DNA of 64,000 nucleotides. Origin: Escherichia phage vB_EcoM_JNE01. A program made the translations under genes and the position numbers. Below the pieces are notes generated by a model. The model made no database searches and was not told where the DNA came from. It saw only the letters and a list, made by a program, of their open reading frames with translations. The stretch lies in sequence record OR670491; one strand, written 5' to 3'. How positions within the stretch are numbered: position 1 is the stretch's first letter; every line of letters starts with the position of its first letter. This document shows positions 20,357 through 36,412 of the stretch, piece after piece.

Positions 20357-20357
20357 T

Positions 20358-23857: not shown

Positions 23858-23869
23858 TAGAATATATTT

Positions 23870-23906
23870 AAAGTACTATCATTTTTTTGCGATAGTACTT
23901 TATAAT
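23870..23906 (+). promoter_or_regulatory. dyad AAAGTACTATC-N10-GATAGTACTTT abutting TATAAT (operator-like)
   Basis: same dyad plus promoter upstream of the paralog at 36326-36364. Confidence 0.4.
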
Positions 23907-23943
23907 AGTGTTTTATTCATACACCAACGATAAGGGCAACAGC

Positions 23944-24210
23944 ATGAATATTAAGTATTTTGCGACGCGTGAACAAGCTCGGATCGCCGCTCGCCAGGAC
24001 GGGGCAACGTTTAAAGATATGGGCGTACAATCGGAACGTGGTAAACGTTGGGCCATTGTAAAGCGTAGTACCGCCAGATCATTACAGTACTGGTTAGCGG
24101 CCTTAAAAAGTCCCGATAGTGTATCGCGTCGAGTGGTAGAAATAAAGCTCGACCGAAAGGGCAACCGCGTGACCGTGTACCGTACTAAAAAGATAGCAGT
24201 ACTTGAATAA
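23944..24210 (+). CDS. hypothetical small protein (paralog of 36413..36808)
   Basis: MNIKYFATREQARIAARQDG...DRKGNRVTVYRTKK. Confidence 0.6.
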   Translation: MNIKYFATREQARIAARQDGATFKDMGVQSERGKRWAIVKRSTARSLQYWLAALKSPDSVSRRVVEIKLDRKGNRVTVYRTKKIAVLE

Positions 24211-24217
24211 AAAGTAC

Positions 24218-24276
24218 TTGCAAACTATGTTTAATGGCGTATAATGTTTTACATCGAGAGCGGGAACTCTTCCCGC
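24218..24276 (+). promoter_or_regulatory. early-type promoter (TTGCAA-16-TATAAT) plus 5' stem-loop GCGGGAA-CTC-TTCCCGC
   Basis: read directly. Confidence 0.55.
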
Positions 24277-24297
24277 CTATAACCTGGAGTAATAAAA

Positions 24298-24528
24298 ATG
24301 ACTAATATGTATATGACTGAAGTTAAAACCGTAAAAGATACTACCACGAATAAAACTACTTACTTACAGCGGATCTGCGGTGTATGGCAACGTATCAGCA
24401 AATCAAAGTACTTTAAATTAACATCATATGCAAATCGTTCGGATTCATTCAGTACTGAAATAAAAGGTAATAAAGTACACCAATACGGCACTTATTATTA
24501 TTACAGCCTGGACGCGATTGCAGTATAA
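24298..24528 (+). CDS. hypothetical small protein
   Basis: 76-aa ORF, SD GGAG. Confidence 0.6.
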   Translation: MTNMYMTEVKTVKDTTTNKTTYLQRICGVWQRISKSKYFKLTSYANRSDSFSTEIKGNKVHQYGTYYYYSLDAIAV

Positions 24529-24558
24529 GCAGTTTACAAATCTTTACAATTGCCGGTA

Positions 24559-24640
24559 TTGACTTATTTTGTCAGTACTGGCATAATGTATTCATTGGCA
24601 GATAAGCCGTAGCCCATAGGGTGCGGGAGTGTATCTATAG
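24559..24640 (+). promoter_or_regulatory. promoter (TTGACT/CATAAT) followed by conserved element AGCCCATAGGGTGCGGGAGTGTATCTAT
   Basis: seven copies of this element in the window, always downstream of a promoter. Confidence 0.45.
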
Positions 24641-24812
24641 AAAAATTAGTTTAGTATAGTTACAATTGTGCACCCGGTGGGTTAGCTGTTGTCATGGGGT
24701 ATATTATGCCAGTACTTGATAATTCTGTCAATACTTTTTTTTTACTATTCAGTACTGAAAACTATTTTTAAAAAGTACTTGCAAACTATGTTTAAAGGCG
24801 TATAATGTTTTA

Positions 24813-24895
24813 CATCAGGACGGGGAACGAAATAAGTAACTTCCCGTTAAGTAGCCCAGGAGTAAGGCACACGAAAAACTCCCCTGATAAAATAG
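24813..24895 (+). ncRNA. candidate structured leader / small RNA (about 80 nt)
   Basis: promoter-driven, no ORF, two hairpins; near-identical copy at 35214-35295. Confidence 0.3.
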
Positions 24896-24956
24896 TTTGA
24901 CAAATGTTTTTAAAAGCGTATAATACTTACATCAACTACTGAATGAGGGTTACAAA

Positions 24957-25568
24957 ATGAAAACTATCACTACTACTACTTTCGTTATGGATTTTTCTGA
25001 ATTGAACGCAGAACAACAAACGTCAGCTATCGAACTGGTTCGGGATCGTGAGCGTTCATGTGAGGATAATTTCTTTGCTGAGGGCGTTATCGAGTACTAT
25101 AAAGAAACAGTACTACCAGAATACGGCATAGATGAAGCTGAATTGCAATACAGTGGTTTTTGGTCGCAAGGTGACGGTGCATCAATCAGTACTGACAGCG
25201 TGGACGCAGTGAAGTTTTTACGCAAGATTAAAGCGTTAACGAAATATCGTTCTATCCGTCACTTGTTGAATGAAGATGATTTGGCAATGAGTGTAGAACG
25301 TTCACACTCTCGCTACGCACACGAAAACACGGTAAGCGGGTACATTGAATCGGCTTACACTGATTTAACCGCAAAACAAGAAACGTTAGTTAATGAGCTT
25401 GAGGAACTACTCACTGATACTATTCGTGAATTGTCCCGCAAGTTGTACCGTGATTTAGAGAATGCATATGAGGATCAATTCACTACTGAAAACATTACGG
25501 CACTGATTGAGGGTAACGAATATCAATTCAATGTTATTGATGGCGTAGTGGAATCAATCGAATATTAA
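24957..25568 (+). CDS. hypothetical protein
   Basis: 203-aa acidic ORF with its own promoter (TTGACA...TATAAT) and SD. Confidence 0.65.
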   Translation: MKTITTTTFVMDFSELNAEQQTSAIELVRDRERSCEDNFFAEGVIEYYKETVLPEYGIDEAELQYSGFWSQGDGASISTDSVDAVKFLRKIKALTKYRSIRHLLNEDDLAMSVERSHSRYAHENTVSGYIESAYTDLTAKQETLVNELEELLTDTIRELSRKLYRDLENAYEDQFTTENITALIEGNEYQFNVIDGVVESIEY

Positions 25569-25580
25569 TTTAAAAAGTAC

Positions 25581-25640
25581 TTGCAAACTAAGTTTAAAAG
25601 CGTATAATACTTTATATCGAGGCGGGGAGTGGTTCCCCGC
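25581..25640 (+). promoter_or_regulatory. early-type promoter plus 5' stem-loop GCGGGGA-GTGG-TTCCCCGC
   Basis: TTGCAA 25581-25586, TATAAT 25603-25608. Confidence 0.55.
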
Positions 25641-25658
25641 TCAAACGAGGATTTAAAA

Positions 25659-25898
25659 ATGGCTAGTACTAAAACTTACAACGGACACAAAAACAAAACT
25701 CATTGGAATGTAAGCCTTTGGATTAATAACGGTGAGTCATTGTATCGGCTTGCTCAAAGTTGCATCGCACAAAGTAGAACTAAAGATATTGCTGCGGAAT
25801 GTATGTACCGCAGATTAAAAGCCAACGGTACTACTACAACGCCGGACGGCTTTAAGTATAGCACTACTGCGATCCGTGCTGCAATGGTTGGAATGTAA
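25659..25898 (+). CDS. hypothetical small protein (paralog of 23618..23857)
   Basis: MASTKTYNGHKNKTHWNVSLWINN...PDGFKYSTTAIRAAMVGM. Confidence 0.6.
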   Translation: MASTKTYNGHKNKTHWNVSLWINNGESLYRLAQSCIAQSRTKDIAAECMYRRLKANGTTTTPDGFKYSTTAIRAAMVGM

Positions 25899-25955
25899 TA
25901 TTCAGTACTGAGATAATGGCGGGTAATAGTTCCCGCCTTTACTGAGGGTTATCTA

Positions 25956-26216
25956 ATGAGTAAAGTAATTAGCTATACAGCACTAAGCAAGACATTATCT
26001 ATTAGCCAGTGCACCGATGGTTATTGGCTATTTGATGAAACGCGTGGCATGAATTTAGCGATGCGTGCAAAAACTGCTGAGGCGGCGTATATTCAAGCAC
26101 TGGAATACTACCAGGAACGTTTAAAGGAAGTAGAAGAAGATTATAAAAGCCTCAAAGCGAAAGTAGATCATTTCGTCGGTCAATTCAACGAGGAAGACGA
26201 CGACAAACAATATTGA
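25956..26216 (+). CDS. hypothetical small protein
   Basis: 86-aa ORF preceded by hairpin GGCGGGTAATAGTTCCCGCC. Confidence 0.55.
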   Translation: MSKVISYTALSKTLSISQCTDGYWLFDETRGMNLAMRAKTAEAAYIQALEYYQERLKEVEEDYKSLKAKVDHFVGQFNEEDDDKQY

Positions 26217-26224
26217 AAAAGTAC

Positions 26225-26283
26225 TTGCAATTAGTTTTCAGTACTGTATAATGGTTTACATCAAAGGGAGAAATGGTTCTCCC
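26225..26283 (+). promoter_or_regulatory. early-type promoter plus 5' stem-loop GGGAGAA-ATGG-TTCTCCC
   Basis: TTGCAA 26225-26230, TATAAT 26247-26252. Confidence 0.55.
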
Positions 26284-26302
26284 TGGTAATGAGGAAAATA
26301 AA

Positions 26303-26524
26303 ATGGCTAATATCACTACTCTTTCCCAACTGGAAGCACTGGTGAAATCTATGCGGGAACATGCCGACAAAATCGGCGTACAAGATCCAGCCGTTTGCTT
26401 CTGCGACGAATTGAATGATGATACCCTGGTAATAGCAGAAGTCCAGGACGTTTCTAACTATTCCTCGCGTTACACTGGCGGCGTAGCAAATAAAGGCGAC
26501 TTCTGTTTATACCTTACAAAATAA
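26303..26524 (+). CDS. hypothetical small protein
   Basis: start moved to MANITTLSQ with SD GAGGAAA. Confidence 0.6.
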   Translation: MANITTLSQLEALVKSMREHADKIGVQDPAVCFCDELNDDTLVIAEVQDVSNYSSRYTGGVANKGDFCLYLTK

Positions 26525-26529
26525 CAACG

Positions 26530-26559
26530 CGGGGAGATAATAACTCCCCGTTACTTTTT
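26530..26559 (+). terminator. rho-independent terminator
   Basis: CGGGGAG-loop-CTCCCCG hairpin plus T-run. Confidence 0.6.
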
Positions 26560-26767
26560 CAGTACTGAATCATTTAATAGACGGATCTCGGCACCCGGTG
26601 GGTTAGTGACTGTTTCGTCTTGATGTAGTAATTATGCCAGTACTGGATGCACTTGTCAACAACTATTTTTCAAATACTTTTTATTAAAATACTTGCAATT
26701 AGTTTTTAAACGCGTATAATGTTTTGCATAGGGGGAGCGGTTCCCCTGGTAACTAAGGAATAATAAA

Positions 26768-27004
26768 ATGCTTGAACAAATCAAATCAACGTCTGCGAAT
26801 GTAACGGGAACGGTATCACACTTTACTAGTGATGAATCGCGTGGTGTTCCTTATTGTGCTGTACATGTAAACACTGATGGCAACTACTGGTTTACGGTTT
26901 ACGGATCATATTCATTTGGACGGCCAGGGCATCAAAAAATTCTGGATAAAGTACAACCAACGGGTAAAAATATCACTGCCGAAATGTTTTATAAAAAATC
27001 ATAA
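26768..27004 (+). CDS. hypothetical small protein
   Basis: 78-aa ORF with promoter, hairpin and SD upstream. Confidence 0.6.
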   Translation: MLEQIKSTSANVTGTVSHFTSDESRGVPYCAVHVNTDGNYWFTVYGSYSFGRPGHQKILDKVQPTGKNITAEMFYKKS

Positions 27005-27009
27005 AGTAC

Positions 27010-27068
27010 TTGCAATTAGTTTTTAGTACTGTATAATATTTTACATCGCAAGGGGAAACGGTTTCCCC
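27010..27068 (+). promoter_or_regulatory. early-type promoter plus 5' stem-loop GGGGAAA-CGG-TTTCCCC
   Basis: TTGCAA 27010-27015, TATAAT 27032-27037. Confidence 0.55.
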
Positions 27069-27088
27069 TGGTAACTAAGGATAATCAA

Positions 27089-27388
27089 ATGAAAGTTGCA
27101 ATCATCGCCCTGGCTTTATCTGTATCGTCTTTCGCTGTTAACGCTTCCGTTGATGTACCGCGTGAAAAATTCATTCAGTGCACTGTTGCAATGACTAACG
27201 AGGAAACGGCTGAGATTGTTACCAAATCCCTGGAACTGGCCCCTGCAATGTTTGCTAATGGCCCGTACCATGAAGAAGATGATCAGGGTAGCACGACCAT
27301 CTATTACGATGCAAAAAGTAAACGCGGTTCAGTTACTGTAATGGATACTGAGAAAGTTACATTCACGGGAGTAATTAATTGTTTTTAA
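27089..27388 (+). CDS. small secreted/periplasmic protein (Sec signal peptide)
   Basis: MKVAIIALALSVSSFAVNA/SVD: hydrophobic N-region with AxA cleavage motif. Confidence 0.65.
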   Translation: MKVAIIALALSVSSFAVNASVDVPREKFIQCTVAMTNEETAEIVTKSLELAPAMFANGPYHEEDDQGSTTIYYDAKSKRGSVTVMDTEKVTFTGVINCF

Positions 27389-27404
27389 TGAAGTACTGAA
27401 TCAT

Positions 27405-27434
27405 AAGCCCACTATAAGAAGTGGGCTTTTTTTA
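27405..27434 (+). terminator. rho-independent terminator
   Basis: AAGCCCACT-loop-AGTGGGCTT plus T-run. Confidence 0.65.
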
Positions 27435-27518
27435 TTGTAGTACTGAATACTTTAAAAATAGTTTTGAAATAGTAGTTGACATTACCAGGGAAAGGCGTAG
27501 AATGTATTACATCAGGAC

Positions 27519-27600
27519 GGGGAACACTAAGTAGACCGCCAGTAAGTCGAACGAAAAACTGGACACGACCTGGAAACTTTGATAAACTAACTTACACTTT
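27519..27600 (+). ncRNA. candidate structured 5' leader (diverged copy of the 80-nt element)
   Basis: begins CATCAGGACGGGGAAC like copies at 24813 and 35214. Confidence 0.25.
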
Positions 27601-27618
27601 AATTGAGGAATTAAAAAA

Positions 27619-28098
27619 ATGGCAAATGTAAAATCATTCTTTAAAGCACTGGTATCTTCTGACGTATCTATCGCCGCTGAATTGCTGGCTGACCTGGATA
27701 ATGATACCATGAAAGCAGTACGCAATAATTTTAATATGGCGTACAGTGCAGCAAAAGAACTGCAAGCCAAAAAGGTAGCAGAACTGGAAGCGGCAAAGGC
27801 AGAACGTGAAGCAGAACTGCAAGCAACAATCGAAAGCATCCAGGCGGCGGTAAGTGGATTGGATATCGAGATCGTAACCGATATGGCACATAAAGCCCTA
27901 GCTGCAAAATACGGTGAAGTAAAAGCGGTTAAAGAAAAGAAATGGATTCAGGACCGCGTTAACGTAGTACTTGACAACGGGGAAGAATATCTTATTCCTG
28001 TACGCGGTAACTGCATTGCCGTAGTACTGGACGCGATTAACTCCAGTGGTATGACACGCGAGGAATGGATCGAAGCTCATCGCAAAGTTGAAGCATAA
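27619..28098 (+). CDS. hypothetical protein with central coiled-coil-like segment
   Basis: 159 aa; AKKVAELEAAKAEREAELQATIESIQAAV. Confidence 0.65.
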   Translation: MANVKSFFKALVSSDVSIAAELLADLDNDTMKAVRNNFNMAYSAAKELQAKKVAELEAAKAEREAELQATIESIQAAVSGLDIEIVTDMAHKALAAKYGEVKAVKEKKWIQDRVNVVLDNGEEYLIPVRGNCIAVVLDAINSSGMTREEWIEAHRKVEA

Positions 28099-28119
28099 CA
28101 ATAAAAGTACTGAATCACT

Positions 28120-28147
28120 AGCCCACCTTAAACGGTGGGCTTTTTTG
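28120..28147 (+). terminator. rho-independent terminator
   Basis: AGCCCACC-TTAAAC-GGTGGGCT plus T-run. Confidence 0.65.
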
Positions 28148-28373
28148 TGTTTATCGTTTACCAGGCCACCAGCACCGCCTAGAAACGATTCTAACGCATT
28201 AAACTGATTATCTGATGCATTGCCCTAGCTGGTGGCGTTAAGGCTGTAAGAACGCGATTGAGAGCGTTTAAAGTATTTTGCAAAAAGTAATAAAAAGTAC
28301 TTGCACGATTAAGAGATTAGCGTATAATTAATTACATCAAGGCAAGACACCTTAACTAACTGAGGATATAAAG

Positions 28374-28526
28374 ATGAATACTTATGACCTGGATTGTTTT
28401 ACTTTACAAGTAATGTCAGTATGCAGTAAGAAAGATTGGTCATCAAAGGAATTTAAAGCAGTTATCGCGTGTGCAAAACACGGCAAGACTATCAATGAAA
28501 CGGCATCAATCATTGATAAACTTTAA
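28374..28526 (+). CDS. hypothetical small protein (50 aa, not in ORF track)
   Basis: hand-translated; promoter and SD GAGGA upstream. Confidence 0.45.
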   Translation: MNTYDLDCFTLQVMSVCSKKDWSSKEFKAVIACAKHGKTINETASIIDKL

Positions 28527-28595
28527 AAAATAGTTTGACAATAGTTTTAAGTACTGGCATAATACATACATCAACTACTGAATAGGAATTAAAAA

Positions 28596-28823
28596 ATGGC
28601 TATTATCATTACTCGCGTATCTGGTACTACTGGCAACGAACAAGTAGTTGCAGTCATTACCAACAAGGAAGGTGCGGAATTGCAAAATGCAATGAATACC
28701 TGGGCCGTTAATGAGTTCGGTCAGTGGGCAAGTGTAGCATACATTGAAACCTATCAAGTGCCGTCGATTAGTTTAACTGATTTGGGCGTTGAGCGTATCC
28801 TTTGCCTGGATGAATTAAATTAA
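28596..28823 (+). CDS. hypothetical small protein
   Basis: 75-aa ORF with promoter and SD. Confidence 0.6.
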   Translation: MAIIITRVSGTTGNEQVVAVITNKEGAELQNAMNTWAVNEFGQWASVAYIETYQVPSISLTDLGVERILCLDELN

Positions 28824-28908
28824 AAAAGTACTTGCAAAGTAAATCGAATAAAGTATAATACATTACATCAAGGGGAGAAATGGTTCTCCCCACTACAAGG
28901 AAACTAAA

Positions 28909-29052
28909 ATGAAAACTTGTCAATGTGGTCATAAATCTATTACGGGTTTTAAGCGGGGCGTTGCTCTTTGCCAGTACCATTATAATTTACAAGTATGGGG
29001 TAAAGAATGGGCCGACCAGGTGGAAGCAGCAAAGAAAGCAAAAAGTAAGTAA
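28909..29052 (+). CDS. hypothetical small protein (47 aa, not in ORF track)
   Basis: hand-translated MKTCQCGHKS...; promoter, hairpin and SD upstream. Confidence 0.45.
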   Translation: MKTCQCGHKSITGFKRGVALCQYHYNLQVWGKEWADQVEAAKKAKSK

Positions 29053-29140
29053 AATATTATCACAGTACTATTGACATAGTTTGATAGTACTGGCATAATA
29101 GATTTTATCAAGACAACATATTAATTTAAGGAATACAAAA

Positions 29141-29464
29141 ATGGCTAAAACTATCATTAACACCGTTTCCCTGGCTGCAATCCGTGCAATCAATGTTGAC
29201 GGTAAACGTTGGACTGATACATATGGCAATACTTATCATTCTTGTCATGTAAGCGTTGAACTGGATAACGGTTTGAATGATCTGGCGGTTGAATCATTTA
29301 CTTATGGCTATGAAGATGCATATCAACAAACGGCGTTAGATCTATTAAAGGAATCAGTAGACGGGCTTAATACTGATGAAACCTCCCTTACTCGTTTGTG
29401 CAATGATCTTAATATCCCGTTGCATTGTACTGTACAGAATGTTAAACGCAAAAAAGATCTTTAA
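29141..29464 (+). CDS. hypothetical protein (paralog of 35990..36313)
   Basis: shared RWTD..GNTYHSC.VS and C-terminal KRKKD. Confidence 0.6.
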   Translation: MAKTIINTVSLAAIRAINVDGKRWTDTYGNTYHSCHVSVELDNGLNDLAVESFTYGYEDAYQQTALDLLKESVDGLNTDETSLTRLCNDLNIPLHCTVQNVKRKKDL

Positions 29465-29544
29465 TTAGCTTTACTTTATGCAGATACTTTGATATAGTGT
29501 CTGCATAGGGGAAAGAAATTAAATTAACTTAAGAGGATCGTATA

Positions 29545-29814
29545 ATGAAAAATATCAGTACTTTAATCGATACAGGTACTCATGTTCGTCGGTCTATGGT
29601 TGCAACCAGTACTACAAAACAAGTACCAAGCGGTTATCTTGTATTTGTGCACGATGGTAAACTCCTGGAACGTTCAATCAATTTTGATGTTAAAAACAAT
29701 TGCCGTTTTATTATCTTTAAGCGTGAGCAATATAAAATTGATTTACCAGCAAAGCCCATAAGCGGGGCGTACAACGTGCAATCATTGTTTGAACGTCAAC
29801 CATACACCTATTAA
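29545..29814 (+). CDS. hypothetical small protein
   Basis: 89-aa ORF, SD GAGGA. Confidence 0.55.
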   Translation: MKNISTLIDTGTHVRRSMVATSTTKQVPSGYLVFVHDGKLLERSINFDVKNNCRFIIFKREQYKIDLPAKPISGAYNVQSLFERQPYTY

Positions 29815-29865
29815 TCAAAACATCGTTAGCGGTCGATTTAGGCCGCGTATATTGGGGATTATACC

Positions 29866-30138
29866 ATGAACGTTAATCAAGTACTGAATGAGATCGAAAG
29901 CATCATTAAACCAATGAAACGCATTGATGCTATGTTAACACCGGAAGAATGCCGCCTTTATGAGCGTTACAGCGTCGAACAAGTCCAGGCAATGGCTATG
30001 GCTACCCCAGCCGTTAAACCGCCTGAGAATGCGTTACAGGACGTTACAGGGGATTATATCATCAATCCAGTACTAGGGAAGATGGCTGCAATCACCGAAG
30101 ATCAACAAGATTACTTAAGTCAGTACTTAAAAGGTTAA
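29866..30138 (+). CDS. hypothetical small protein
   Basis: 90-aa ORF. Confidence 0.55.
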   Translation: MNVNQVLNEIESIIKPMKRIDAMLTPEECRLYERYSVEQVQAMAMATPAVKPPENALQDVTGDYIINPVLGKMAAITEDQQDYLSQYLKG

Positions 30139-30143
30139 TTAAT

Positions 30144-30353: not shown

Positions 30354-30422
30354 TTTTTAAACGCGTATAATGTTTTACATGAAGGGGAGAAATGATTCTC
30401 CCCACTAATTAAGGAATATGAA

Positions 30423-30569
30423 ATGAAAGCATCAAAAAAGAGTAATACTAAGAAAGCACGTTCAACCTTAGATGGGGTATTCCCTTTACGTTTCGTTGAT
30501 GAAGTGGTGTCCTACCCGCCGGGCCTTACTCCTGAGATGGTAGAAAGTTTGCGTAAATCTAAAAAATAG
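30423..30569 (+). CDS. hypothetical small basic protein (48 aa, not in ORF track)
   Basis: hand-translated; promoter, hairpin and SD upstream. Confidence 0.45.
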   Translation: MKASKKSNTKKARSTLDGVFPLRFVDEVVSYPPGLTPEMVESLRKSKK

Positions 30570-30650
30570 TACTTGCAATTAGTTTTTAGTACTGTATAAT
30601 AGTTTACATGAAGGGGAGAAATGATTCTCCCCAATAACAGGAGAATCAAA

Positions 30651-30803
30651 ATGAAACAATACAACGCTCGGTTTGATGTTACTATCGGTAACGGCAAAGG
30701 TCAATTCTCTTTCAGTACTCGCAAAAGTTATACAGAAAACTTCCTGCGTAATTGTGCACTGACCGCCGCTCAAATTAAACATTACTTTCAGGCTAAAAAA
30801 TGA
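30651..30803 (+). CDS. hypothetical small protein
   Basis: start moved to MKQYNARF downstream of promoter hairpin; SD AGGAGAA. Confidence 0.5.
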   Translation: MKQYNARFDVTIGNGKGQFSFSTRKSYTENFLRNCALTAAQIKHYFQAKK

Positions 30804-30889
30804 AAACATTAGCTTACTATAGTTCGGCCCTGGTCGGTGCATTGATCGCGGCGTTGTTAGTAACCTATCTATTCTTTATGGTGATTTAA
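30800..30889 (+). CDS. candidate 29-aa single-TM peptide
   Basis: ATGA overlap with previous gene; hydrophobic MKTLAYYSSALVGALIAALLVTYLFFMVI. Confidence 0.3.
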   Translation: MKTLAYYSSALVGALIAALLVTYLFFMVI

Positions 30890-31033
30890 ATGAATCCAAC
30901 AGGTTTAAACTATAAAAGTTGTTCGGCGTTTACGAAAGCAAATAAAGCGAATGCACGTAAAGCGAAAGTACAAGAATACATCAAGCAAGGCATGACGCGA
31001 AAGGCGGCGATTCTAAAAGCTAAAAATAAATGA
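30890..31033 (+). CDS. candidate 47-aa basic protein
   Basis: TAA-ATG abutting start; hand-translated. Confidence 0.3.
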   Translation: MNPTGLNYKSCSAFTKANKANARKAKVQEYIKQGMTRKAAILKAKNK

Positions 31034-31113
31034 AAAAAGTGGTTGACTCCGGTCAGCCATTTTGCTATTATATATTCATTGAGAGATAGCTCACTAGCCC
31101 ACAGGGTGCATAA
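31033..31113 (+). promoter_or_regulatory. terminator/promoter hairpin plus conserved element AGCCCACAGGGTGCATAAGTGTATCTAT
   Basis: TTGACT inside inverted repeat, TATTAT -10, then conserved element. Confidence 0.45.
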
Positions 31114-31254
31114 GTGTATCTATTATATGAGTATTGAGTACTGAAAACTATTTTAAAAGTATTTGTAGAAAGTACTTGCAAACTATCTCAATAAGCGTAT
31201 AATGTTTTACATCGAAAGGGGAAACGGTTTCCCCTGATAATAAGGAAACAAATC

Positions 31255-31596
31255 ATGACTATCTCAATTGCTCAATCTAACTTTGAAAACGAAATCATCG
31301 CCCAGGCACTGCGTTTAAATGATGGTCGGGCCGAAATTAATTACGGTTTCAATTCAGGCGGTTGTGAAAAATATCAGTACTTTGTAACGGCTGATGGCGG
31401 TGTCCTGGGTATCAATACAGTTATTGTAAACATCCAAAAAATTAATTTCAATGATCCAGACGATAGCCAGTTTTACATCACTGGCGTAGACGTGAACTAT
31501 GAGGATGACTCACTAACTGATGATCACACTGGTGAGAAGTTAGAGAGTGCATACGGTGAAGATGATTATCAGTCAGTACCGGAAGATTTTGAATAA
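31255..31596 (+). CDS. hypothetical acidic protein
   Basis: 113-aa ORF; second promoter, hairpin and SD upstream. Confidence 0.6.
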   Translation: MTISIAQSNFENEIIAQALRLNDGRAEINYGFNSGGCEKYQYFVTADGGVLGINTVIVNIQKINFNDPDDSQFYITGVDVNYEDDSLTDDHTGEKLESAYGEDDYQSVPEDFE

Positions 31597-31693
31597 TATT
31601 AAAAAAATAGTTTGACAATAGATTATAGTACTGTATAATAGTTTACATCAAGGGGAGAAAAACTTCTCCCCACTAACAGAGAGAGAAAACAAA

Positions 31694-31906
31694 ATGGCTA
31701 ATATCTGCACTGTACTGAAAAATGCAAAACAAGTTTTATTTTCTGATCACGATCATTTAAACAAGGATATTACTGGCGTTCGGAATATCAAAGATGTAAA
31801 AAGTGTTATGGGTATCTATTGCAATATGAAACGTGTTGGAACGTTCGGCGACAAAGTACTATACCAGGCAGGGGATTACAATTTTACACTGACTATCATT
31901 AACTAA
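31694..31906 (+). CDS. hypothetical small protein
   Basis: 70-aa ORF with promoter, hairpin and SD. Confidence 0.6.
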   Translation: MANICTVLKNAKQVLFSDHDHLNKDITGVRNIKDVKSVMGIYCNMKRVGTFGDKVLYQAGDYNFTLTIIN

Positions 31907-31998
31907 AAATATATTACCAGTACTATTAAATCTATTGACAACGTTTGATAGTACTGACATAATAACTTTTATCAACTACACTACTAAGGAATTAAAAA

Positions 31999-32178
31999 AT
32001 GGCTATCATCGCAAAAACTGAAATCGTTGGTCTGGATTCTATCATCATGACGTTTGAAGATCAAAAAGGTATGTATGTAGTTTCATATGGTGATTATGTT
32101 CGGGAGTATGAAACGGTAGACGAAGCCTTTGAAAGTTATATTCGCCAGGTGAATAAAGCATACGACGACTACCGCTAA
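31999..32178 (+). CDS. hypothetical small protein (59 aa, not in ORF track)
   Basis: hand-translated MAIIAKTEIVG...; promoter and SD AAGGAA. Confidence 0.45.
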   Translation: MAIIAKTEIVGLDSIIMTFEDQKGMYVVSYGDYVREYETVDEAFESYIRQVNKAYDDYR

Positions 32179-32268
32179 AATATATTACCAGTGCTATTGA
32201 CAAAGTTTGATAGTACTGTATAATAAGTTTTATAAACAGTAGTTAACTTAACCTAAGAGAGAAATAAA

Positions 32269-32412
32269 ATGATCGCACTGGATTCATTCATCGACGCAGT
32301 ACTGGCAAAAACTGGCGAGGATCTGACCGCAGAACAATACGCGATGATCGAGCAATGTCAGCAAAACGGTAAATCGGTGAAAGATACTGTTAAGATTATC
32401 CGCAAGATGTAA
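32269..32412 (+). CDS. hypothetical small protein (47 aa, not in ORF track)
   Basis: hand-translated; promoter TTGACA...TATAAT and SD upstream; terminator downstream. Confidence 0.45.
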   Translation: MIALDSFIDAVLAKTGEDLTAEQYAMIEQCQQNGKSVKDTVKIIRKM

Positions 32413-32418
32413 GATTAT

Positions 32419-32447
32419 AGCCCACTGGTTAACGCTGGTGGGCTTTA
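32419..32447 (+). terminator. terminator hairpin containing a Chi octamer
   Basis: AGCCCAC-loop-GTGGGCT; loop/stem contains GCTGGTGG. Confidence 0.5.
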
Positions 32448-32517
32448 ATCCTTTACCCTATACAATGCCAGTACTCAACCGTTTATCTCGTTAGAATGCG
32501 TTACAGGACGTTTGACA

Positions 32518-32715
32518 ATGATTAGCATGAAATCAGTACAAAAACAAATAGAAACATTATCAAAAATTAAACGTAAACAGTACTCGTTAGAATATACAAT
32601 CAATGGTAACTATCATCTAATGAAAGAGAATAATTTTATCGTCATTGATGAATCATTGCAAGTTATTAGTATAGTACTGAAAGCATTAATCAATGACAGA
32701 AAAAAATTAAAATAA
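32518..32715 (+). CDS. hypothetical small protein
   Basis: ORF; weak SD; start uncertain. Confidence 0.35.
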   Translation: MISMKSVQKQIETLSKIKRKQYSLEYTINGNYHLMKENNFIVIDESLQVISIVLKALINDRKKLK

Positions 32716-32804
32716 TCTATTGACAATATCCTCCAGTACTGGCATAATACTTACATCAAGACGAGAACGTCGCTAACCCATAGGGTGCACAAATGTAACT
32801 ATAT

Positions 32805-32895
32805 AATATCGATCAATAAATGATCAAAAAAGTACTGGATCAATTTAGCATAAGGCGTATAATTCTGATCAATTCTTGATCAAAGGCAATATACG
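32805..32895 (+). promoter_or_regulatory. GATC-rich palindromic cluster (five GATC sites, TGATCAA repeats)
   Basis: ATCGATCAATAAATGATCAA...GGATCAAT...TGATCAATTCTTGATCAA, upstream of the TraR-like gene. Confidence 0.35.
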
Positions 32896-33044
32896 CAGTT
32901 GAATTTATATAGACAGTACAAAGGCGTTACTATCCGTGGTAATGCTGGTGGATATGTAGTATCATATGGTTTGAATAAGATAAACACTAGTAGTATTATT
33001 GTAGCATTACAGTACTATAGTATTTTTATAATGAGGTTAAAATA

Positions 33045-33302
33045 ATGGCAGTAGGATACGCGAAAGACGGGGCCGAACAAGACGAGATTCACGCAGTGAT
33101 TCAGGCCGCCGTTAACCACGCTAGAAAGCAAATTAACGCACAAAGAGAATCACTGGTACATTGCCTCGACTGCGGCGATAAAATCCCTGAGAATCGACGC
33201 CAGGCCGTTATAGGGTGCATGTATTGTATTACTTGCCAGGAGGATCATGATAGTACTTTTAAAAGAGATCCGCGTAATTGTTGGCATAGATCTATGAGAT
33301 AA
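33045..33302 (+). CDS. TraR/DksA-family C4 zinc-finger protein
   Basis: CLDCGDKIPENRRQAVIGCMYCITCQ matches the CxxCGxxIPExRR...CxxCQ signature. Confidence 0.7.
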   Translation: MAVGYAKDGAEQDEIHAVIQAAVNHARKQINAQRESLVHCLDCGDKIPENRRQAVIGCMYCITCQEDHDSTFKRDPRNCWHRSMR

Positions 33303-33365
33303 AAAGTATTGACAGTACTGAAAGATAGTGTATAATGTTTTATATCTTAACTGAGGATAGTAATC

Positions 33366-33722
33366 ATGGGAATACAACATATCACGCGTACTACTGACAA
33401 TGGCGAGATCACTGGTTATCAGGTACAGGGCAAAGTAGCACAATTGCAGTACTGGTTTGTTAAACGTGGAATCATTGCACCGGATCTTGATTATGACCGT
33501 GTAGCGTTTATTGATTCTCTTTATGTTGATCCTGATAGTCGGGGCAATGGTGAAGGTAACGAATTAATGAATGCCTTTATTGATGCCGCCGATGATTCAG
33601 ATTGTATCATCTTAGAATGCGATACGGGAGAAGATAACGCCTTTAATCTTAAAGAATGGTACGAAGGTTTCGGATTCGAGGTACTGATCGATAGTGAATA
33701 TCCTATCATGATTTTATCATAG
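33366..33722 (+). CDS. possible GNAT-like acetyltransferase domain protein
   Basis: VAFIDSLYV...RGNGEGNELMNAF resembles the R-x-x-G-x-G CoA-binding motif; weak. Confidence 0.4.
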   Translation: MGIQHITRTTDNGEITGYQVQGKVAQLQYWFVKRGIIAPDLDYDRVAFIDSLYVDPDSRGNGEGNELMNAFIDAADDSDCIILECDTGEDNAFNLKEWYEGFGFEVLIDSEYPIMILS

Positions 33723-33800
33723 TACTTGCATTTAGTTTTCAGTACTGTTATAGTACTTGCATCAAGGGGAAACATCTTCCCCTACTAAGAGGAAATAAAA

Positions 33801-33989
33801 ATGGAAAACTTATCAAGTATTTTAGTACAAGATGATTTCGGTAATCCTGGAAGTGCTATCATTGTTCGGGGCAATAAAGCAACGTTTGTTATTGCTGGTG
33901 GACCCGTACAGCGTAGCATTAAAAATAATGCTGTTACCATTAATAATGTACGCTATCGCTTAGATAAAGAATTAATTCATAAACTGTAA
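33801..33989 (+). CDS. hypothetical small protein
   Basis: 62-aa ORF with promoter, hairpin and SD. Confidence 0.55.
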   Translation: MENLSSILVQDDFGNPGSAIIVRGNKATFVIAGGPVQRSIKNNAVTINNVRYRLDKELIHKL

Positions 33990-34016
33990 TATTAATTTAA
34001 TAGAGGATAACAATAA

Positions 34017-34340
34017 ATGTACATTCATACTACTATCACAAAGGAAGTCCGTTGCCAGTTCGAAAGTATTCCGGGCGTATGTTTCATCACTGGTACGTTT
34101 TCCCCTGGTGATCGTGATAATCCAGTACTGTTACAATTACGCCATCCATCATGGGATAAAGCATTTGATCTACCGTTGAATGAATTCGCAACTACTGCTG
34201 AAAAGTACATTAAAAATATTCGCGAGAATGATCGACTATTCATTAATGCTTTTAGTGATGCCGCGTTAAGTGAGATCCATGCTGTATTGGTTGCAATCAT
34301 GGAATCAATGGAGAAAACTATATTCAAACAAGGTGAATAA
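34017..34340 (+). CDS. hypothetical protein
   Basis: 107-aa ORF, SD GAGGA. Confidence 0.55.
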   Translation: MYIHTTITKEVRCQFESIPGVCFITGTFSPGDRDNPVLLQLRHPSWDKAFDLPLNEFATTAEKYIKNIRENDRLFINAFSDAALSEIHAVLVAIMESMEKTIFKQGE

Positions 34341-34423
34341 AAACTATTGACAATGCAATCCAGTACTGTATAATAGTTTACATGAAGGAGAGAAATGATT
34401 CTCCCCACTAAGAGGAAAGAAAA

Positions 34424-34636
34424 ATGCAAGGTCAACTAATCGTTCGTAAATGGTCTGATACTAACGAAAAACCGTGGGATGTACAATACATCGCCCCAAA
34501 TGGTGAATCCAGATATCAACCAGGTGTAACGCATAGTACTGAGCAATTCGCCGCCGCTCATCGCGAACGTCTGTTACAATCAATGCAGCAAGGTTCCGGT
34601 GAAAAATTCATTCAGGATCATTGGCTGAAAGATTAA
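34424..34636 (+). CDS. hypothetical small protein
   Basis: 70-aa ORF with promoter, hairpin and SD. Confidence 0.6.
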   Translation: MQGQLIVRKWSDTNEKPWDVQYIAPNGESRYQPGVTHSTEQFAAAHRERLLQSMQQGSGEKFIQDHWLKD

Positions 34637-34722
34637 AAAGTACTTGCACAGTACTGAATAAAGTGTATAATGTTTTATATCGGAAGGGGAATAGTTCCCC
34701 TCCGAACAAAGAGGAAAGTATA

Positions 34723-34896
34723 ATGGTCCAGGTAGAATTAACAGTACTGAAAGATCTGTTTTATCGGATTGGTACTACTGGCGAATATCCGAAGGGTGAT
34801 AATGCAAAACTTTACGTATCACTCGACTTATGGCAACGCGAACAATTAGCAACGGCCTGGCGTAAAGGCAAAGCAGATAGCGAGGTGAAAGCATGA
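34723..34896 (+). CDS. hypothetical small protein
   Basis: start moved to MVQVELTVLK downstream of promoter hairpin; SD AGAGGAAA. Confidence 0.5.
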   Translation: MVQVELTVLKDLFYRIGTTGEYPKGDNAKLYVSLDLWQREQLATAWRKGKADSEVKA

Positions 34897-35042
34897 AAGA
34901 ATTCTTATTTGAAGTAGTGTTTCAAGGTGTCGGTAATAACCAACTGATTCGATCAAGTGGTTATAATGTTAACCAGGCATGGAATAACATTAAACAAATG
35001 TACCCGAACGCTATCACATATCGCAACCCGAAAGAAGTTTAA
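34893..35042 (+). CDS. hypothetical small protein (49 aa, not in ORF track)
   Basis: ATGA overlap; hand-translated. Confidence 0.4.
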   Translation: MKEFLFEVVFQGVGNNQLIRSSGYNVNQAWNNIKQMYPNAITYRNPKEV

Positions 35043-35060
35043 AAATAATTGAAAAAGGGA

Positions 35061-35136
35061 TTGACTCCGGTCAGTCCCTTTGTTATTATATACGCATAGA
35101 AACAAATTAGCCCACCGGGTGCATAAATGTATCTAT
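35061..35136 (+). promoter_or_regulatory. terminator/promoter hairpin GGGATTGACTCCGGTCAGTCCC plus conserved element AGCCCACCGGGTGCATAAATGTATCTAT
   Basis: near-identical copies at 38336 and 41086. Confidence 0.45.
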
Positions 35137-35213
35137 TGTTTGCTGGTGGCTAGTACTGAAAACTATTTTTAAAAAGTACTTGCATTGTACTTAGAATCAA
35201 GTATAATGTTTTA

Positions 35214-35295
35214 CATCAGGACGGGGAACGAAATAAGTAACCCCGTTAAGTAGTCCAGGAGTAAGACATACGAAAAACTCCCCTGATAAAATAGT
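35214..35295 (+). ncRNA. candidate structured leader / small RNA (about 80 nt)
   Basis: second copy of the 24813-24895 element; differences preserve hairpin pairing. Confidence 0.3.
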
Positions 35296-35356
35296 TTGAC
35301 AATAGAAAGTAAACGAGTATAATACTTACATCAACCACTGATAAGGAAACATAAAA

Positions 35357-35632
35357 ATGCGGATTCTACTGACAGCTAACGAAATCGAACAAGTACTGAC
35401 TACTAATCTGGAACAATGGAAACGTGAAGCAGATATCCAGGCGGTTCAATGCCTTAACGATAAGTTAACGCCAGATGACTTAAGCACGATTGTTGATCCA
35501 CAATTTTATGAAGATATTCACGACACGTCTTTAAGCGTCGAGGATGTACTTGATAAGCACTACATTGATACTGATTTACATGTTTACGGTCGTAAAAACT
35601 TTATCACTATTCACGACATTTACAATACTTAA
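35357..35632 (+). CDS. hypothetical protein
   Basis: 91-aa ORF with third promoter and SD. Confidence 0.6.
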   Translation: MRILLTANEIEQVLTTNLEQWKREADIQAVQCLNDKLTPDDLSTIVDPQFYEDIHDTSLSVEDVLDKHYIDTDLHVYGRKNFITIHDIYNT

Positions 35633-35718
35633 GTATTGACAAAGTATCTTAGTACTGTATAATAGTTTACATCAAGGGGGGGAATGGTTCCCCTCCTAAC
35701 TAAAAGAGAGAAATAAAA

Positions 35719-35901
35719 ATGGCTAAGTGCACTATCTGTAATAAAGAAATAGTATTAGTTCCAAGTGCCCGTGAACGTGCCGCTCGGTTCGGTGGCAAAG
35801 CGTCAGACTATACAAAAATGTTTACTACCCATACAGCTTGCCAGGTAGCAAAACGTTCACAAGAAAGCGTAGAATTAATGCGTAAACTTTCCAAAAAATA
35901 A
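35719..35901 (+). CDS. hypothetical small protein
   Basis: 60-aa ORF with promoter, hairpin and SD. Confidence 0.55.
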   Translation: MAKCTICNKEIVLVPSARERAARFGGKASDYTKMFTTHTACQVAKRSQESVELMRKLSKK

Positions 35902-35989
35902 GTATTGACAAAGTATCTTAGTACTGTATAATAGTTTACATCAAGGGGGGGGGAATGGTTCCCCTCCTAACAAAGAGAGAGAAATAAAA

Positions 35990-36313
35990 ATGGCTATGAT
36001 CCTTACCCAGAAAGTAGAACTGAAAATTGTAACCTCCTTTGACATTAAAGTTAATCGGTGGACTGATAGCCACGGCAATACTTACCACTCCTGCTACGTG
36101 TCCGCATTGATTGGTGATCGCTGGGAAGACCTGGGACACGAAACCTTTACATACGGTTACGGCACACAAGGCGAGTACACGGGTTTAGAAATCATTAAGG
36201 AAACTGTAATAGGTTTCAACCCGAAAGAGAAAGTACTACACAGAATTGAGAAAGAGATCAACAAAGAAATTACAGTTCGCTACTACGATGTAAAACGTAA
36301 GAAAGACATGTAA
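35990..36313 (+). CDS. hypothetical protein (paralog of 29141..29464)
   Basis: shared RWTD.HGNTYHSCYVS and C-terminal KRKKDM. Confidence 0.6.
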   Translation: MAMILTQKVELKIVTSFDIKVNRWTDSHGNTYHSCYVSALIGDRWEDLGHETFTYGYGTQGEYTGLEIIKETVIGFNPKEKVLHRIEKEINKEITVRYYDVKRKKDM

Positions 36314-36325
36314 TAGAATCCATTT

Positions 36326-36364
36326 AAAGTACTATTTGACATTGCCCAGATAGTACTTTATAAT
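36326..36364 (+). promoter_or_regulatory. dyad AAAGTACTAT-N-ATAGTACTTT enclosing TTGACA, abutting TATAAT (operator-like)
   Basis: TTGACA 36337-36342, TATAAT 36359-36364; dyad arms on both sides of -35. Confidence 0.45.
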
Positions 36365-36412
36365 AGACTCTAACTTGTAGTACTAATTAACTTAACTAAT
36401 AGGATGTACACC

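What the first reader, a model, noticed from the sequence alone, without database searches (positions are those of the whole stretch)
23870..36364. Operator-like dyad overlapping the promoters of a duplicated gene pair
The paralogs 23944-24210 and 36413-36808 are each preceded by AAAGTACTAT(C)-N-(G)ATAGTACTTT immediately abutting the TATAAT. In the 36.3 kb copy the dyad arms flank the TTGACA -35. A 10-bp perfect dyad straddling the promoter is the classic geometry of a repressor operator, suggesting these two genes are co-regulated by a dimeric DNA-binding protein.
Basis: partly seen in the sequence, partly recalled or inferred. Interest (0 to 1): 0.45.

Follow-up and report, generated by a model that had tools for sequence, protein, structure and literature searches.

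The report
Genome-wide AGTACT palindrome bracketing early promoters
The supposed operator is two copies of AGTACT, a six-letter palindrome that this giant E. coli phage and its relatives carry about 14 times more often than chance in promoters, terminators and genes, so it belongs to a genome-wide system with an unknown reader, not a private switch for two genes.

Summary
Both dyads are present, and the arms are longer than reported: 12 bp and 11 bp of perfect inverted repeat. Each abuts a TATAAT upstream of a true paralog pair.

The core of each arm, AGTACT, is the most abundant hexamer in the window: 301 copies against about 22 expected. It occurs in all three codon frames, in promoter spacers and in terminator stems.

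AGTACT is 6-20x enriched in four genera of RaK2-like jumbo phages (Asteriusvirus, Alcyoneusvirus, Mimasvirus, Eneladusvirus). It is not enriched in PA5oct, T4 or E. coli. Sites are under purifying selection: 83-90% are intact in ~91%-identical relatives, against 65-71% for flanking hexamers.

About half of the consensus sigma70 early promoters, here and in RaK2, carry AGTACT 1-2 bp upstream of the -10. A second copy often sits at the -35.

At the 23.9 kb locus the arms are invariant across relatives. The distance between them changes (19, 21 or 22 bp; 24 bp in the paralog). So each AGTACT is an autonomous unit, not half of a fixed-spacing operator.

Most likely an unidentified AGTACT-specific dimeric protein acts genome-wide and shuts off early promoters. 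This step is inferred. I found no description of the motif in the searched literature.

The parts
23870..23880 (.). Left arm of dyad 1 (AAAGTACTATC; AGTACT core 23872-23877), centred about -39 relative to the inferred start site
   Evidence: Sequence. Invariant in phAPEC6, CMSTMSU, A4 and PBECO4.
23891..23901 (.). Right arm of dyad 1 (GATAGTACTTT; AGTACT core 23894-23899), abutting the -10
   Evidence: Belongs to the -10-proximal class, conserved 74/75.
23901..23906 (+). -10 hexamer TATAAT of the promoter of paralog A; there is no -35 match at 16-18 bp
   Evidence: Read.
23944..24210 (+). Paralog A, 88 aa, function unknown
36326..36335 (.). Left arm of dyad 2 (AAAGTACTAT), immediately 5' of the -35
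36336..36364 (+). Consensus sigma70-type promoter TTGACA-17-TATAAT of paralog B. The right arm ATAGTACTTT (36350-36359) fills the 3' end of the spacer.
   Evidence: 12/12 match.
36413..36808 (+). Paralog B, 131 aa, function unknown. Homologs occur in RaK2, Eneladusvirus and Yersinia jumbo phages.
   Evidence: Structure model pLDDT 72.6 with no PDB match.
29063..29099 (+). Third dyad-type promoter: CAGTACTAT-TGACA...ATAGTACTG-G-CATAAT (AGTACT at 29064 and 29086, 22 bp apart)
31918..31963 (+). Fourth dyad-type promoter (AGTACT at 31919 and 31950; TTGACA at 31935; CATAAT at 31958)
32190..32224 (+). Fifth dyad-type promoter. The left arm is decayed to AGTGCT in this genome but is intact AGTACT in all four relatives.
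40449..40486 (+). Sixth dyad: TCAGTACTAT-TGACA...ATAGTACTGA, followed by TGTAAT
22880..23050 (.). Cluster of 66-bp direct repeats carrying the 14-bp perfect palindrome ATTCAGTACTGAAT three times, plus further AGTACT copies at 13-bp spacing. It lies at the point where transcription diverges and the GC skew changes sign.
6949..6968 (-). Example of an intrinsic terminator built from the motif: GCC-AGTACT-nn-AGTACT-GGC followed by a T-run. The same design occurs at 8204-8223, 9620-9639, 13368-13387 and 14620-14638.
1..64000 (.). 301 dispersed AGTACT copies (4.7 per kb; 8.5 per kb noncoding, 3.9 per kb coding; frames 81/65/61). None lies in 47964-52906.

Best explanation
Shown:
- Each 'dyad' is two autonomous copies of AGTACT, the signature palindrome of the enterobacterial RaK2-like jumbo phages. 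Weak symmetric flanks give T-N-C-AGTACT-G-N-A. The best form is ATTCAGTACTGAAT.
- The palindrome is kept by selection throughout the genome.
- In Asteriusvirus, Alcyoneusvirus and Eneladusvirus it is built into sigma70-type early promoters at fixed places. One copy ends 1-2 bp upstream of the -10. A second copy often overlaps or flanks the -35, with 11, 20, 22 or 24 bp between starts.
- The two reported loci are the 22- and 24-bp variants of this shared architecture. Both were inherited through one gene-plus-promoter duplication.

Inferred:
- AGTACT is the binding site of an abundant, clade-specific, dimeric double-stranded-DNA-binding protein that has not been identified.
- AGTACT is roughly 80-fold denser in phage than in host DNA, so such a protein would load almost only onto the phage genome.
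- At early promoters, occupancy of the site between -35 and -10 (and of its partner at about -40) would exclude RNA polymerase. Early genes would then be shut off together once the protein accumulates. These two paralogs would be only two of dozens of targets.
For: - Abundance: AGTACT has 301 copies against 22.4 expected and is the top hexamer in the window. CAGTACTG has 59 copies against about 0.7 expected.
- Pressure at the DNA level: sites fall in all three frames (81/65/61). They are 3.4x a synonymous-codon shuffle and 7.7x a codon-order shuffle. Ser-Thr dipeptides number 146 against 88 expected, and 81 of them are encoded AGT-ACT against 21 expected.
- Selection: AGTACT is intact in 83-90% of aligned sites, against 65-71% for hexamers 8-19 nt away, in four relatives (p from 2e-6 to 7e-4).
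- Clade-wide distribution: 13.6-18x in Asteriusvirus, 7-16x in RaK2, 6-10x in GAP32 and CBB, and 19.8x in Serratia BF. By contrast it is 0.1x in PA5oct, 0.8x in T4 and 0.26x in E. coli.
- Promoter placement: the offset is -7 or -8 from the -10 in 16/36, 20/29 and 4/14 promoters. No promoter has a mid-spacer copy, where 4.7 are expected (p=0.009). RaK2 shows a sharp 20-bp spacing peak with 18 pairs.
- -10-proximal sites are conserved 74/75, against 384/464 elsewhere (p=4e-5).
- The arms are invariant while the spacer changes in both sequence and length.
- The flank preference is symmetric, and 14-bp perfect palindromes cluster in a control region. This is typical of dimeric helix-turn-helix operators.
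Against: - No binding protein was identified. No HTH family was found among 123 window ORFs.
- The motif also forms terminator stems and fills coding DNA. A transcriptional role does not explain those copies.
- In CBB (Mimasvirus) the genome is 6.8-10.5x enriched, yet sigma70-like promoters lack the -10-proximal copy. Enrichment and promoter placement can therefore be uncoupled.
- All three promoter positions are places where AGTACT shares bases with promoter elements: AGTAC-TTGACA, TTGAC-AGTACT, and AGTACTG supplying a TG. Motif packing under a generic pressure would also produce this.
- Promoters in these phages are related by duplication, so their counts are not independent.
- The 4.9-kb module at 47964-52906 carries only the half-site CAGTAC[A/C], and only on one strand (42 against 2). 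That hints at a strand-specific reader rather than a symmetric dimer.
Confidence: 0.42

Rival explanations
1. By-product of a genome-wide pressure unrelated to transcription. AGTACT would be maintained everywhere for another reason: as the target of a phage DNA-modification enzyme, as a self-identity or protection tag, for replication, recombination or packaging, or through biased mismatch repair. It would accumulate wherever sequence is free to vary. Promoter spacers, the edges of the -35 and terminator stems are simply such places, and the dyad would have no regulatory role.
For: - The motif is in all codon frames, in terminator stems and in late-gene regions.
- In CBB the enrichment exists without the promoter-spacer copy.
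- The promoter positions coincide with overlaps with TTGACA and TG.
- There is a roughly 80-fold density contrast with the host.
- RaK2-like phages encode several DNA methyltransferases, and RaK2 DNA resists many restriction enzymes (PMC3622015; PMC11895373).
Against: - -10-proximal copies are significantly better conserved than other copies: 74/75 against 384/464.
- Mid-spacer positions are never used: 0 against 4.7 expected.
- One-mismatch neighbours are not depleted, as a repair drive would predict.
- The weak symmetric flank preference extends beyond a hexamer and differs between genera. That fits a co-evolving binding protein better than a type II methyltransferase.
Confidence: 0.27
2. 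Intrinsic promoter element. The AGTACT(G) next to the -10, and the AGTAC next to the -35, would be read by host RNA polymerase itself (an extended -10 TG, spacer or sigma region 3 contacts) or by polymerase modified by the phage. They would tune early-promoter strength, and no separate repressor would be involved.
For: - The position is fixed at 1-2 bp from the -10.
- In the CATAAT class the motif supplies a canonical TGn extended -10, and the tool flags TG at exactly these promoters.
- The architecture is conserved across three genera.
- Conservation is very high, 74/75.
Against: - In the TATAAT class the TG is one base out of register.
- In the two reported promoters, and in the BF ortholog, the motif is followed by T, not G (AGTACTTTATAAT), so there is no TG at all.
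- Only TG, not the whole hexamer, would be needed.
- This does not explain the genome-wide excess.
Confidence: 0.15
3. One reading: a dedicated dimeric repressor binds the two 10-bp arms as half-sites and co-regulates just this paralog pair, possibly by autoregulation through the paralog product.
For: - These are the longest symmetric arms among AGTACT pairs in the window, at 12 and 11 bp.
- The arms are conserved in relatives.
- The BF ortholog promoter also carries two AGTACT copies.
Against: - The distance between the arms varies from 19 to 24 bp.
- The RaK2 ortholog has only one arm.
- The same dyad precedes unrelated genes.
- The two loci share ancestry, so their resemblance is not independent.
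- The paralog protein shows no DNA-binding fold or family.
Confidence: 0.04
4. Structural element. The inverted repeat would act as a hairpin, either as a cruciform in DNA or as a terminator for antisense or read-through transcripts.
For: - The terminator scan lists the 23.9 kb dyad as a 13-pair stem on the minus strand.
- AGTACT pairs do form bona fide terminators elsewhere.
Against: - The stem has only 3 G-C pairs, and no proper T-run follows it on either strand.
- The 36.3 kb copy has a 14-nt loop containing the -35.
- No minus-strand gene needs terminating at this position.
- The spacer length varies among relatives without compensatory logic.
Confidence: 0.03

Closest known systems
HIP1, the highly iterated palindrome GCGATCGC of cyanobacteria (PMC6604393, PMC6105098)
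   Same: - It is a short palindrome far above expectation across a whole genome.
- It occurs in coding and noncoding DNA.
- It is conserved across a clade.
- Its function is still debated.
- It is useful as a marker of native versus acquired DNA.
   Different: - The sequence differs, and the genome is that of a virus rather than a cell.
- AGTACT is additionally placed at exact positions in promoters and terminators.
- The HIP1 core is known to be methylated by a dedicated methyltransferase. No modification is known here.
Classical phage operators overlapping promoters (lambda OR/OL, 434, P22): my own knowledge
   Same: - A palindromic site overlaps the -35/-10.
- The flanks are symmetric.
- Paired sites lie about two helical turns apart, which would allow cooperative binding.
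   Different: - Those operators number a handful per genome and have fixed geometry.
- Here there are roughly a thousand or more sites per genome (extrapolated from 2-6 per kb).
- The pair spacing is variable, and no repressor gene has been identified.
Genome-coating phage proteins that also switch off early promoters (phi29 p6 with p4; SPO1 TF1): my own knowledge
   Same: This is the proposed logic: one abundant phage DNA-binding protein organises the whole genome and represses early promoters.
   Different: - p6 and TF1 recognise DNA shape or hydroxymethyluracil-containing DNA rather than a strict hexamer.
- No homolog was tested or found here.
SlmA-binding site GTGAGTACTCAC of E. coli (PMC3020112)
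   Same: It has an identical AGTACT core in a 12-bp palindrome bound by a TetR-type dimer. SlmA is found in the same host group.
   Different: - SlmA needs G and T at positions 1-2 and a purine at position 3.
- The phage flank is T-N-C. G at -1 occurs in only 9% of sites, GAGTACTC occurs 0 times and SBS-like sites occur 0 times.
- No SlmA homolog occurs in these phages.
Over-represented genomic identity words (Chi, DNA uptake sequences): my own knowledge
   Same: A short word is greatly enriched in 'self' DNA relative to other DNA, with about an 80-fold contrast here.
   Different: - Those words are asymmetric and are read directionally.
- AGTACT is palindromic.
- The exception is the 47964-52906 module, where only one-stranded CAGTAC[A/C] occurs.

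Membership tests
Bipartite repressor operator (one dimer, two half-sites) | Inverted-repeat half-sites overlapping a promoter | tested here: met
   The arms are 12 and 11 bp and overlap the -10 and flank the -35.
Bipartite repressor operator (one dimer, two half-sites) | Fixed centre-to-centre spacing of half-sites among orthologous and paralogous sites | tested here: not met
   AGTACT start-to-start distance is 22 bp (window), 21 bp (phAPEC6, PBECO4), 19 bp (A4, CMSTMSU) and 24 bp (paralog B). The RaK2 ortholog has a single arm.
Bipartite repressor operator (one dimer, two half-sites) | Sites restricted to a small regulon | tested here: not met
   There are 301 core copies in 64 kb. The same dyad precedes at least four other, unrelated genes.
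Bipartite repressor operator (one dimer, two half-sites) | A cognate sequence-specific DNA-binding protein | tested here: inconclusive
   Pfam found no HTH among 123 window ORFs. The paralog model has no DNA-binding fold match. The rest of the ~350-kb genome was not examined.
Sigma70-type promoter | TTGACA and TATAAT hexamers 16-18 bp apart | tested here: met
   The 36.3 kb copy matches 12/12. The 23.9 kb copy has a perfect -10 but only 1-2/6 at the -35, so it meets the test only partly.
Highly iterated palindrome (HIP1-like genomic signature) | A short palindrome many-fold above expectation across the genome, in coding (all frames) and noncoding DNA | tested here: met
   14x enrichment and the top hexamer; frames 81/65/61; 8.5 per kb noncoding and 3.9 per kb coding.
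Highly iterated palindrome (HIP1-like genomic signature) | Shared by a clade and absent from outgroups and from recently acquired DNA | tested here: met
   Four genera are enriched. PA5oct, T4 and E. coli are not. The module 47964-52906 is shared only with phage Turkey5 and has zero copies.
Highly iterated palindrome (HIP1-like genomic signature) | Core methylated by a dedicated methyltransferase | not testable with these tools
   This needs SMRT or nanopore methylome data, or ScaI/RsaI digestion of virion DNA. The phages do encode several methyltransferases.
SlmA-binding site | G and T at positions 1-2 and a purine at position 3 flanking AGTACT | tested here: not met
   The flank consensus is T-N-C. 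There are 0 SBS-like matches and GAGTACTC occurs 0 times.
Intrinsic terminator (for AGTACT pairs 7-9 bp apart in the 5.7-17 kb array) | A G+C-anchored stem-loop followed by a T-run, downstream of a gene | tested here: met
   GCC-AGTACT-nn-AGTACT-GGC followed by TTTTCCTTTTT lies after five of the RCC1-like genes. This is judged by sequence only; no 3'-end data exist.

The most novel reading that the evidence does not exclude
AGTACT may be a clade-wide 'self address' written about a thousand times into every RaK2-like jumbo phage genome. It would be read by a still-unknown machinery that tells phage DNA from host DNA. These phages lack the hydroxymethylcytosine mark that T4 uses for this purpose. 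The same reader would time early transcription, because the tag is built into the early promoters. The one-stranded CAGTAC[A/C] variant in the 47964-52906 module would mean that the unit actually read is a polar half-site.
Probability: 0.25. Interest if true: 0.85.

Novelty: new variant of a known kind. Interest (0 to 1): 0.62.

Why it matters
RaK2-like jumbo phages are widely isolated as therapy candidates, yet more than 80% of their genes and all of their regulation are unknown. A six-base palindrome that outnumbers every other hexamer would be a concrete handle on that biology. It reshapes codon and dipeptide usage, it sits at fixed positions in early promoters across genera, and it is about 80 times rarer in the host.

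Practical uses follow:
- It gives a bait sequence for fishing out the reader protein.
- It predicts which promoters switch together.
- It offers a compositional marker for native versus recently imported DNA in these genomes.
- It warns annotators that 'operators' seen at single loci here are instances of a global signal.

Tried and rejected
1. Paralog product as autoregulator. Pfam gave no hit. The AlphaFold2 model built on a 22-sequence alignment reached pLDDT 72.6, and Foldseek against the PDB found nothing with E below 0.1. There is no support for this idea.
2. Host SlmA, whose site has an AGTACT core. The flanks are incompatible, there are 0 SBS-like sites, and these phages have no SlmA homolog.
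3. LexA and TrpR-like arrangements, recalled from memory (CTGT-N8-ACAG; GTACT-N8-AGTAC). The hexamer spacings they require, 18 and 14 bp, are not enriched.
4. A repair drive of the very-short-patch type. One-mismatch neighbours of AGTACT are not depleted, and those that keep GTAC are enriched.
5. Codon or amino-acid bias as the cause. Rejected by the synonymous-codon and codon-order shuffles and by the equal use of frames.
6. Non-coding RNA or tRNA at the dyads or in the 21-23 kb noncoding stretch. Rfam and ARAGORN found nothing.
7. Homing-endonuclease genes as motif-free imports. The density is only slightly lower (1.6 against 2.3 per kb) and the numbers are too small to conclude.
8. Literature. 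No paper in the searchable library links AGTACT or GTAC to these phages. The published CBB promoter and terminator tables contain the motif only inside terminators, and it is not discussed.
9. A candidate DNA-binding gene inside the window. None was recognisable. The only families found were a DksA/TraR zinc finger, a ParE-like toxin, GNAT and RCC1-like repeats.

Full report
**Identity of the window.** The window comes from an Asteriusvirus, the PBECO4/121Q/G17 group of ~350-kb jumbo coliphages. A 4-kb query around the first locus matches 193 phage records, best at 97% (WPEC3, UE-S1). Paralog B is 100% identical to that of phage EC.P1. The region from 17 to 47 kb is an early-gene region of about 100 small plus-strand ORFs, each with its own sigma70-like promoter. 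The region from 5.7 to 17 kb is a minus-strand array of RCC1-like paralogs.

- Dyad 1: AAAGTACTATC at 23870-23880, a 10-nt spacer, GATAGTACTTT at 23891-23901, TATAAT at 23901-23906, ATG at 23944.
- Dyad 2: AAAGTACTAT at 36326-36335, TTGACA at 36336-36341, ATAGTACTTT at 36350-36359, TATAAT at 36359-36364, ATG at 36413. This is a 12/12 consensus promoter.
- Extended symmetrically, the arms are 12 and 11 bp. These are the longest among the 52 AGTACT pairs lying 12-40 bp apart.
- The proteins are paralogs (E=4e-21).
- The upstream DNA is homologous from the preceding stop codon onward, so the two dyads descend from one duplication.
- Dyad 1 has no -35 (1-2/6 matches).

**The core of the arms is a genome-wide signal.**
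- AGTACT occurs 301 times in 64 kb, against 22.4 +/- 4.6 in shuffles. It is the most frequent hexamer, ahead of AAAAAA in a 36% G+C genome.
- CAGTACTG occurs 59 times against about 0.7 expected.
- Coding sites are spread over all three frames (81/65/61). They are 3.4-fold above a synonymous-codon shuffle and 7.7-fold above a codon-order shuffle.
- The pressure reaches protein sequence. There are 146 Ser-Thr dipeptides against 88 expected, 81 of them written AGT-ACT against 21 expected. A-GTA-CTx occurs 62 times against 9.7, and xAG-TAC-Txx 57 times against 5.9.
- Noncoding density is 8.5 per kb and coding density 3.9 per kb.
- Flanks are weakly but symmetrically biased (T at -3, C at -1).
- The 14-bp perfect palindrome ATTCAGTACTGAAT occurs three times in 66-bp direct repeats at 22880-23050. 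Divergent transcription and the GC-skew sign change meet there.

**The signal is selected and clade-wide.**
- In four relatives about 91% identical to the window, AGTACT is intact at 83-90% of aligned sites. Hexamers 8-19 nt away are intact at 65-71% (p from 2e-6 to 7e-4).
- Enrichment by group:

| Genome or region | AGTACT enrichment |
|---|---|
| Asteriusvirus genomes | 13.6-18x |
| RaK2, late region | 7.1x |
| RaK2, early region | 15.7x |
| GAP32 | 6.3x |
| CBB | 6.8x and 10.5x |
| Serratia phage BF | 19.8x |
| Pseudomonas phage PA5oct | 0.1x |
| T4 | 0.8x |
| E. coli K-12, 50-kb sample | 0.26x |

- The density contrast between phage and host is therefore about 80-fold.

**Placement in regulatory elements.**
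- AGTACT begins 7-8 bp before the -10 in 16 of 36 near-consensus sigma70 promoters in the window, 20 of 29 in the RaK2 early region and 4 of 14 in BF.
- No promoter has a copy at mid-spacer offsets, where 4.7 are expected (p=0.009).
- A second copy often overlaps the first T of the -35 (AGTAC-TTGACA or AGTAC-TTGCAA), or its last A, or lies 1-2 bp upstream.
- In RaK2 this yields a sharp 20-bp spacing peak of 18 pairs. In the window the spacings are 11, 20, 22 and 24 bp.
- The specific AGTACTAT...ATAGTACT dyad recurs at 29.1, 31.9, 32.2 and 40.45 kb, upstream of unrelated genes. It also occurs twice in RaK2.
- -10-proximal copies are conserved 74/75 across the four relatives, against 384/464 for non-promoter copies (p=4e-5).
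- The motif also forms terminators. GCC-AGTACT-nn-AGTACT-GGC plus a T-run follows five RCC1-like genes. A published CBB terminator has the same design.

**Why this is not a private, fixed-geometry operator.**
- Across orthologs of the 23.9 kb promoter both arms are invariant. The inter-arm segment differs in sequence and in length, so the AGTACT copies lie 22, 21 or 19 bp apart. In paralog B they lie 24 bp apart.
- The RaK2 ortholog (ORF353) keeps only the -10-proximal copy.
- The BF ortholog has AGTACT fused to the -35 and a second copy 21 bp downstream, again followed by TTATAAT.
- A single dimer spanning both arms would not tolerate this variation. Each AGTACT, a full palindrome, is the unit.

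**What reads it?**
- No candidate emerged. No HTH family was found among 123 window ORFs.
- The paralog product has a moderately confident model without any PDB match.
- SlmA, whose site shares the AGTACT core, is excluded by its flank requirements and by the absence of a phage homolog.
- Published genome papers mention several methyltransferases and restriction-resistant DNA but not this motif.

**Weighing the models.**
- The symmetric extended flanks, the clustered 14-bp palindromes, the fixed promoter positions, the extra conservation at promoters and the avoidance of mid-spacer positions favour a dimeric DNA-binding protein with a transcriptional effect. Given consensus-strength promoters, the most plausible effect is collective early shutoff.
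- Against this, CBB shows enrichment without the spacer copy.
- The motif fills terminator stems and codons, where transcriptional control is irrelevant.
- All promoter positions are ones where AGTACT can share bases with promoter elements.
- A primary genome-wide function is therefore likely, whether protection, marking or modification, and promoter placement may be derived. I rate the protein-operator model at about 0.4, the non-regulatory by-product model at about 0.27 and the intrinsic promoter element at about 0.15.

**An unexplained exception.**
- The stretch 47964-52906 contains no AGTACT at all, yet GTAC stays at 12.9 per kb.
- In that stretch, AGTAC followed by A, C or G occurs 42 times on the plus strand (AGTACA 29, AGTACC 10, AGTACG 3). 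The reverse-strand equivalent occurs twice.
- The 5' flank preference (T at -3, C at -1) is retained.
- The module is shared at the DNA level only with phage Turkey5. Its proteins are about 28% identical to the standard Asteriusvirus alleles.
- It looks like an import from an unsampled lineage that uses a one-stranded half-site. If so, the fundamental unit may be polar.

**Comparison and novelty.** The closest analogue is HIP1 of cyanobacteria, an iterated palindrome of debated function. The closest mechanistic analogues are promoter-overlapping phage operators and genome-coating early repressors. No paper in the searchable library describes the motif. I class it as a new variant of a known kind. 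The reported dyad itself is ordinary once seen in context. The context is what is interesting.

Noticed in passing
window 47964-52906: This 4.9-kb module has zero AGTACT. It has 42 plus-strand AGTAC[A/C/G] against 2 on the minus strand, in all codon frames and in noncoding DNA. At the DNA level it is shared only with phage Turkey5, and its proteins are ~28% identical to the usual Asteriusvirus alleles. It looks like an import from a lineage with a polar half-site version of the motif.
   Followed up: partly
window 42426-45166: This 2.7-kb stretch has no AGTACT and a low GTAC density (4.3 per kb against ~12 elsewhere). It may be another recently acquired segment.
   Followed up: no
window 22880-23050 (noncoding stretch 21.0-23.1 kb): 66-bp direct repeats carry three 14-bp perfect palindromes ATTCAGTACTGAAT, plus AGTACT copies at 13-bp spacing. 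They lie where transcription diverges and the cumulative GC skew reaches its minimum. This is a candidate control region or replication origin. No Rfam or tRNA hit was found.
   Followed up: partly
window 5697-16965, minus strand: An array of nine ~360-450-aa paralogs; the two members scanned gave RCC1/WD40_RLD Pfam hits for one and none for the other. Most of the intergenic gaps have an AGTACT-built terminator followed by a T4-late-like TAAATA...TATAAT element and a strong Shine-Dalgarno sequence.
   Followed up: partly
window 31036-31071, 35054-35089, 38329-38364, 41079-41114: A repeated cassette in which a 12-bp-stem hairpin (AAAGGGATTGACTCCGGTCAGTCCCTTT) contains a TTGACT -35 and is followed by TG-n-TATTAT. 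It combines a terminator and a promoter and contains no AGTACT. The same cassette occurs in RaK2 and Serratia phage BF.
   Followed up: no
window 23500-36000, promoters listed: A second early-promoter class has AA(A/G)GCG instead of AGTACTG before TATAAT, often with AGTACT fused to a TTGCAA -35. The two classes may differ in timing.
   Followed up: no
whole window: CCCTGG is 6.9x and CTGG/CCAG about 2x over expectation, while CTAG is 0.47x. This is the enterobacterial Dcm/very-short-patch-like signature. GTGCAC and TGCA are also mildly enriched in all RaK2-like genomes sampled.
   Followed up: no
window ORFs (alignment A2): The early region encodes large families of tiny paralogs (15 members of phrog_4148, 9 of phrog_11711). 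It also encodes a ParE-like toxin domain, a DksA/TraR-type zinc finger, a GNAT acetyltransferase and, at 16-750, an HNH homing endonuclease.
   Followed up: no
public records MG065691.1 and MG065686.1 (Campylobacter phages A11a and A18a): These records contain E. coli slmA at 100% identity, and Campylobacter phage records (accessions not listed) matched the 4-kb window query. They probably carry contaminating E. coli or coliphage sequence.
   Followed up: no
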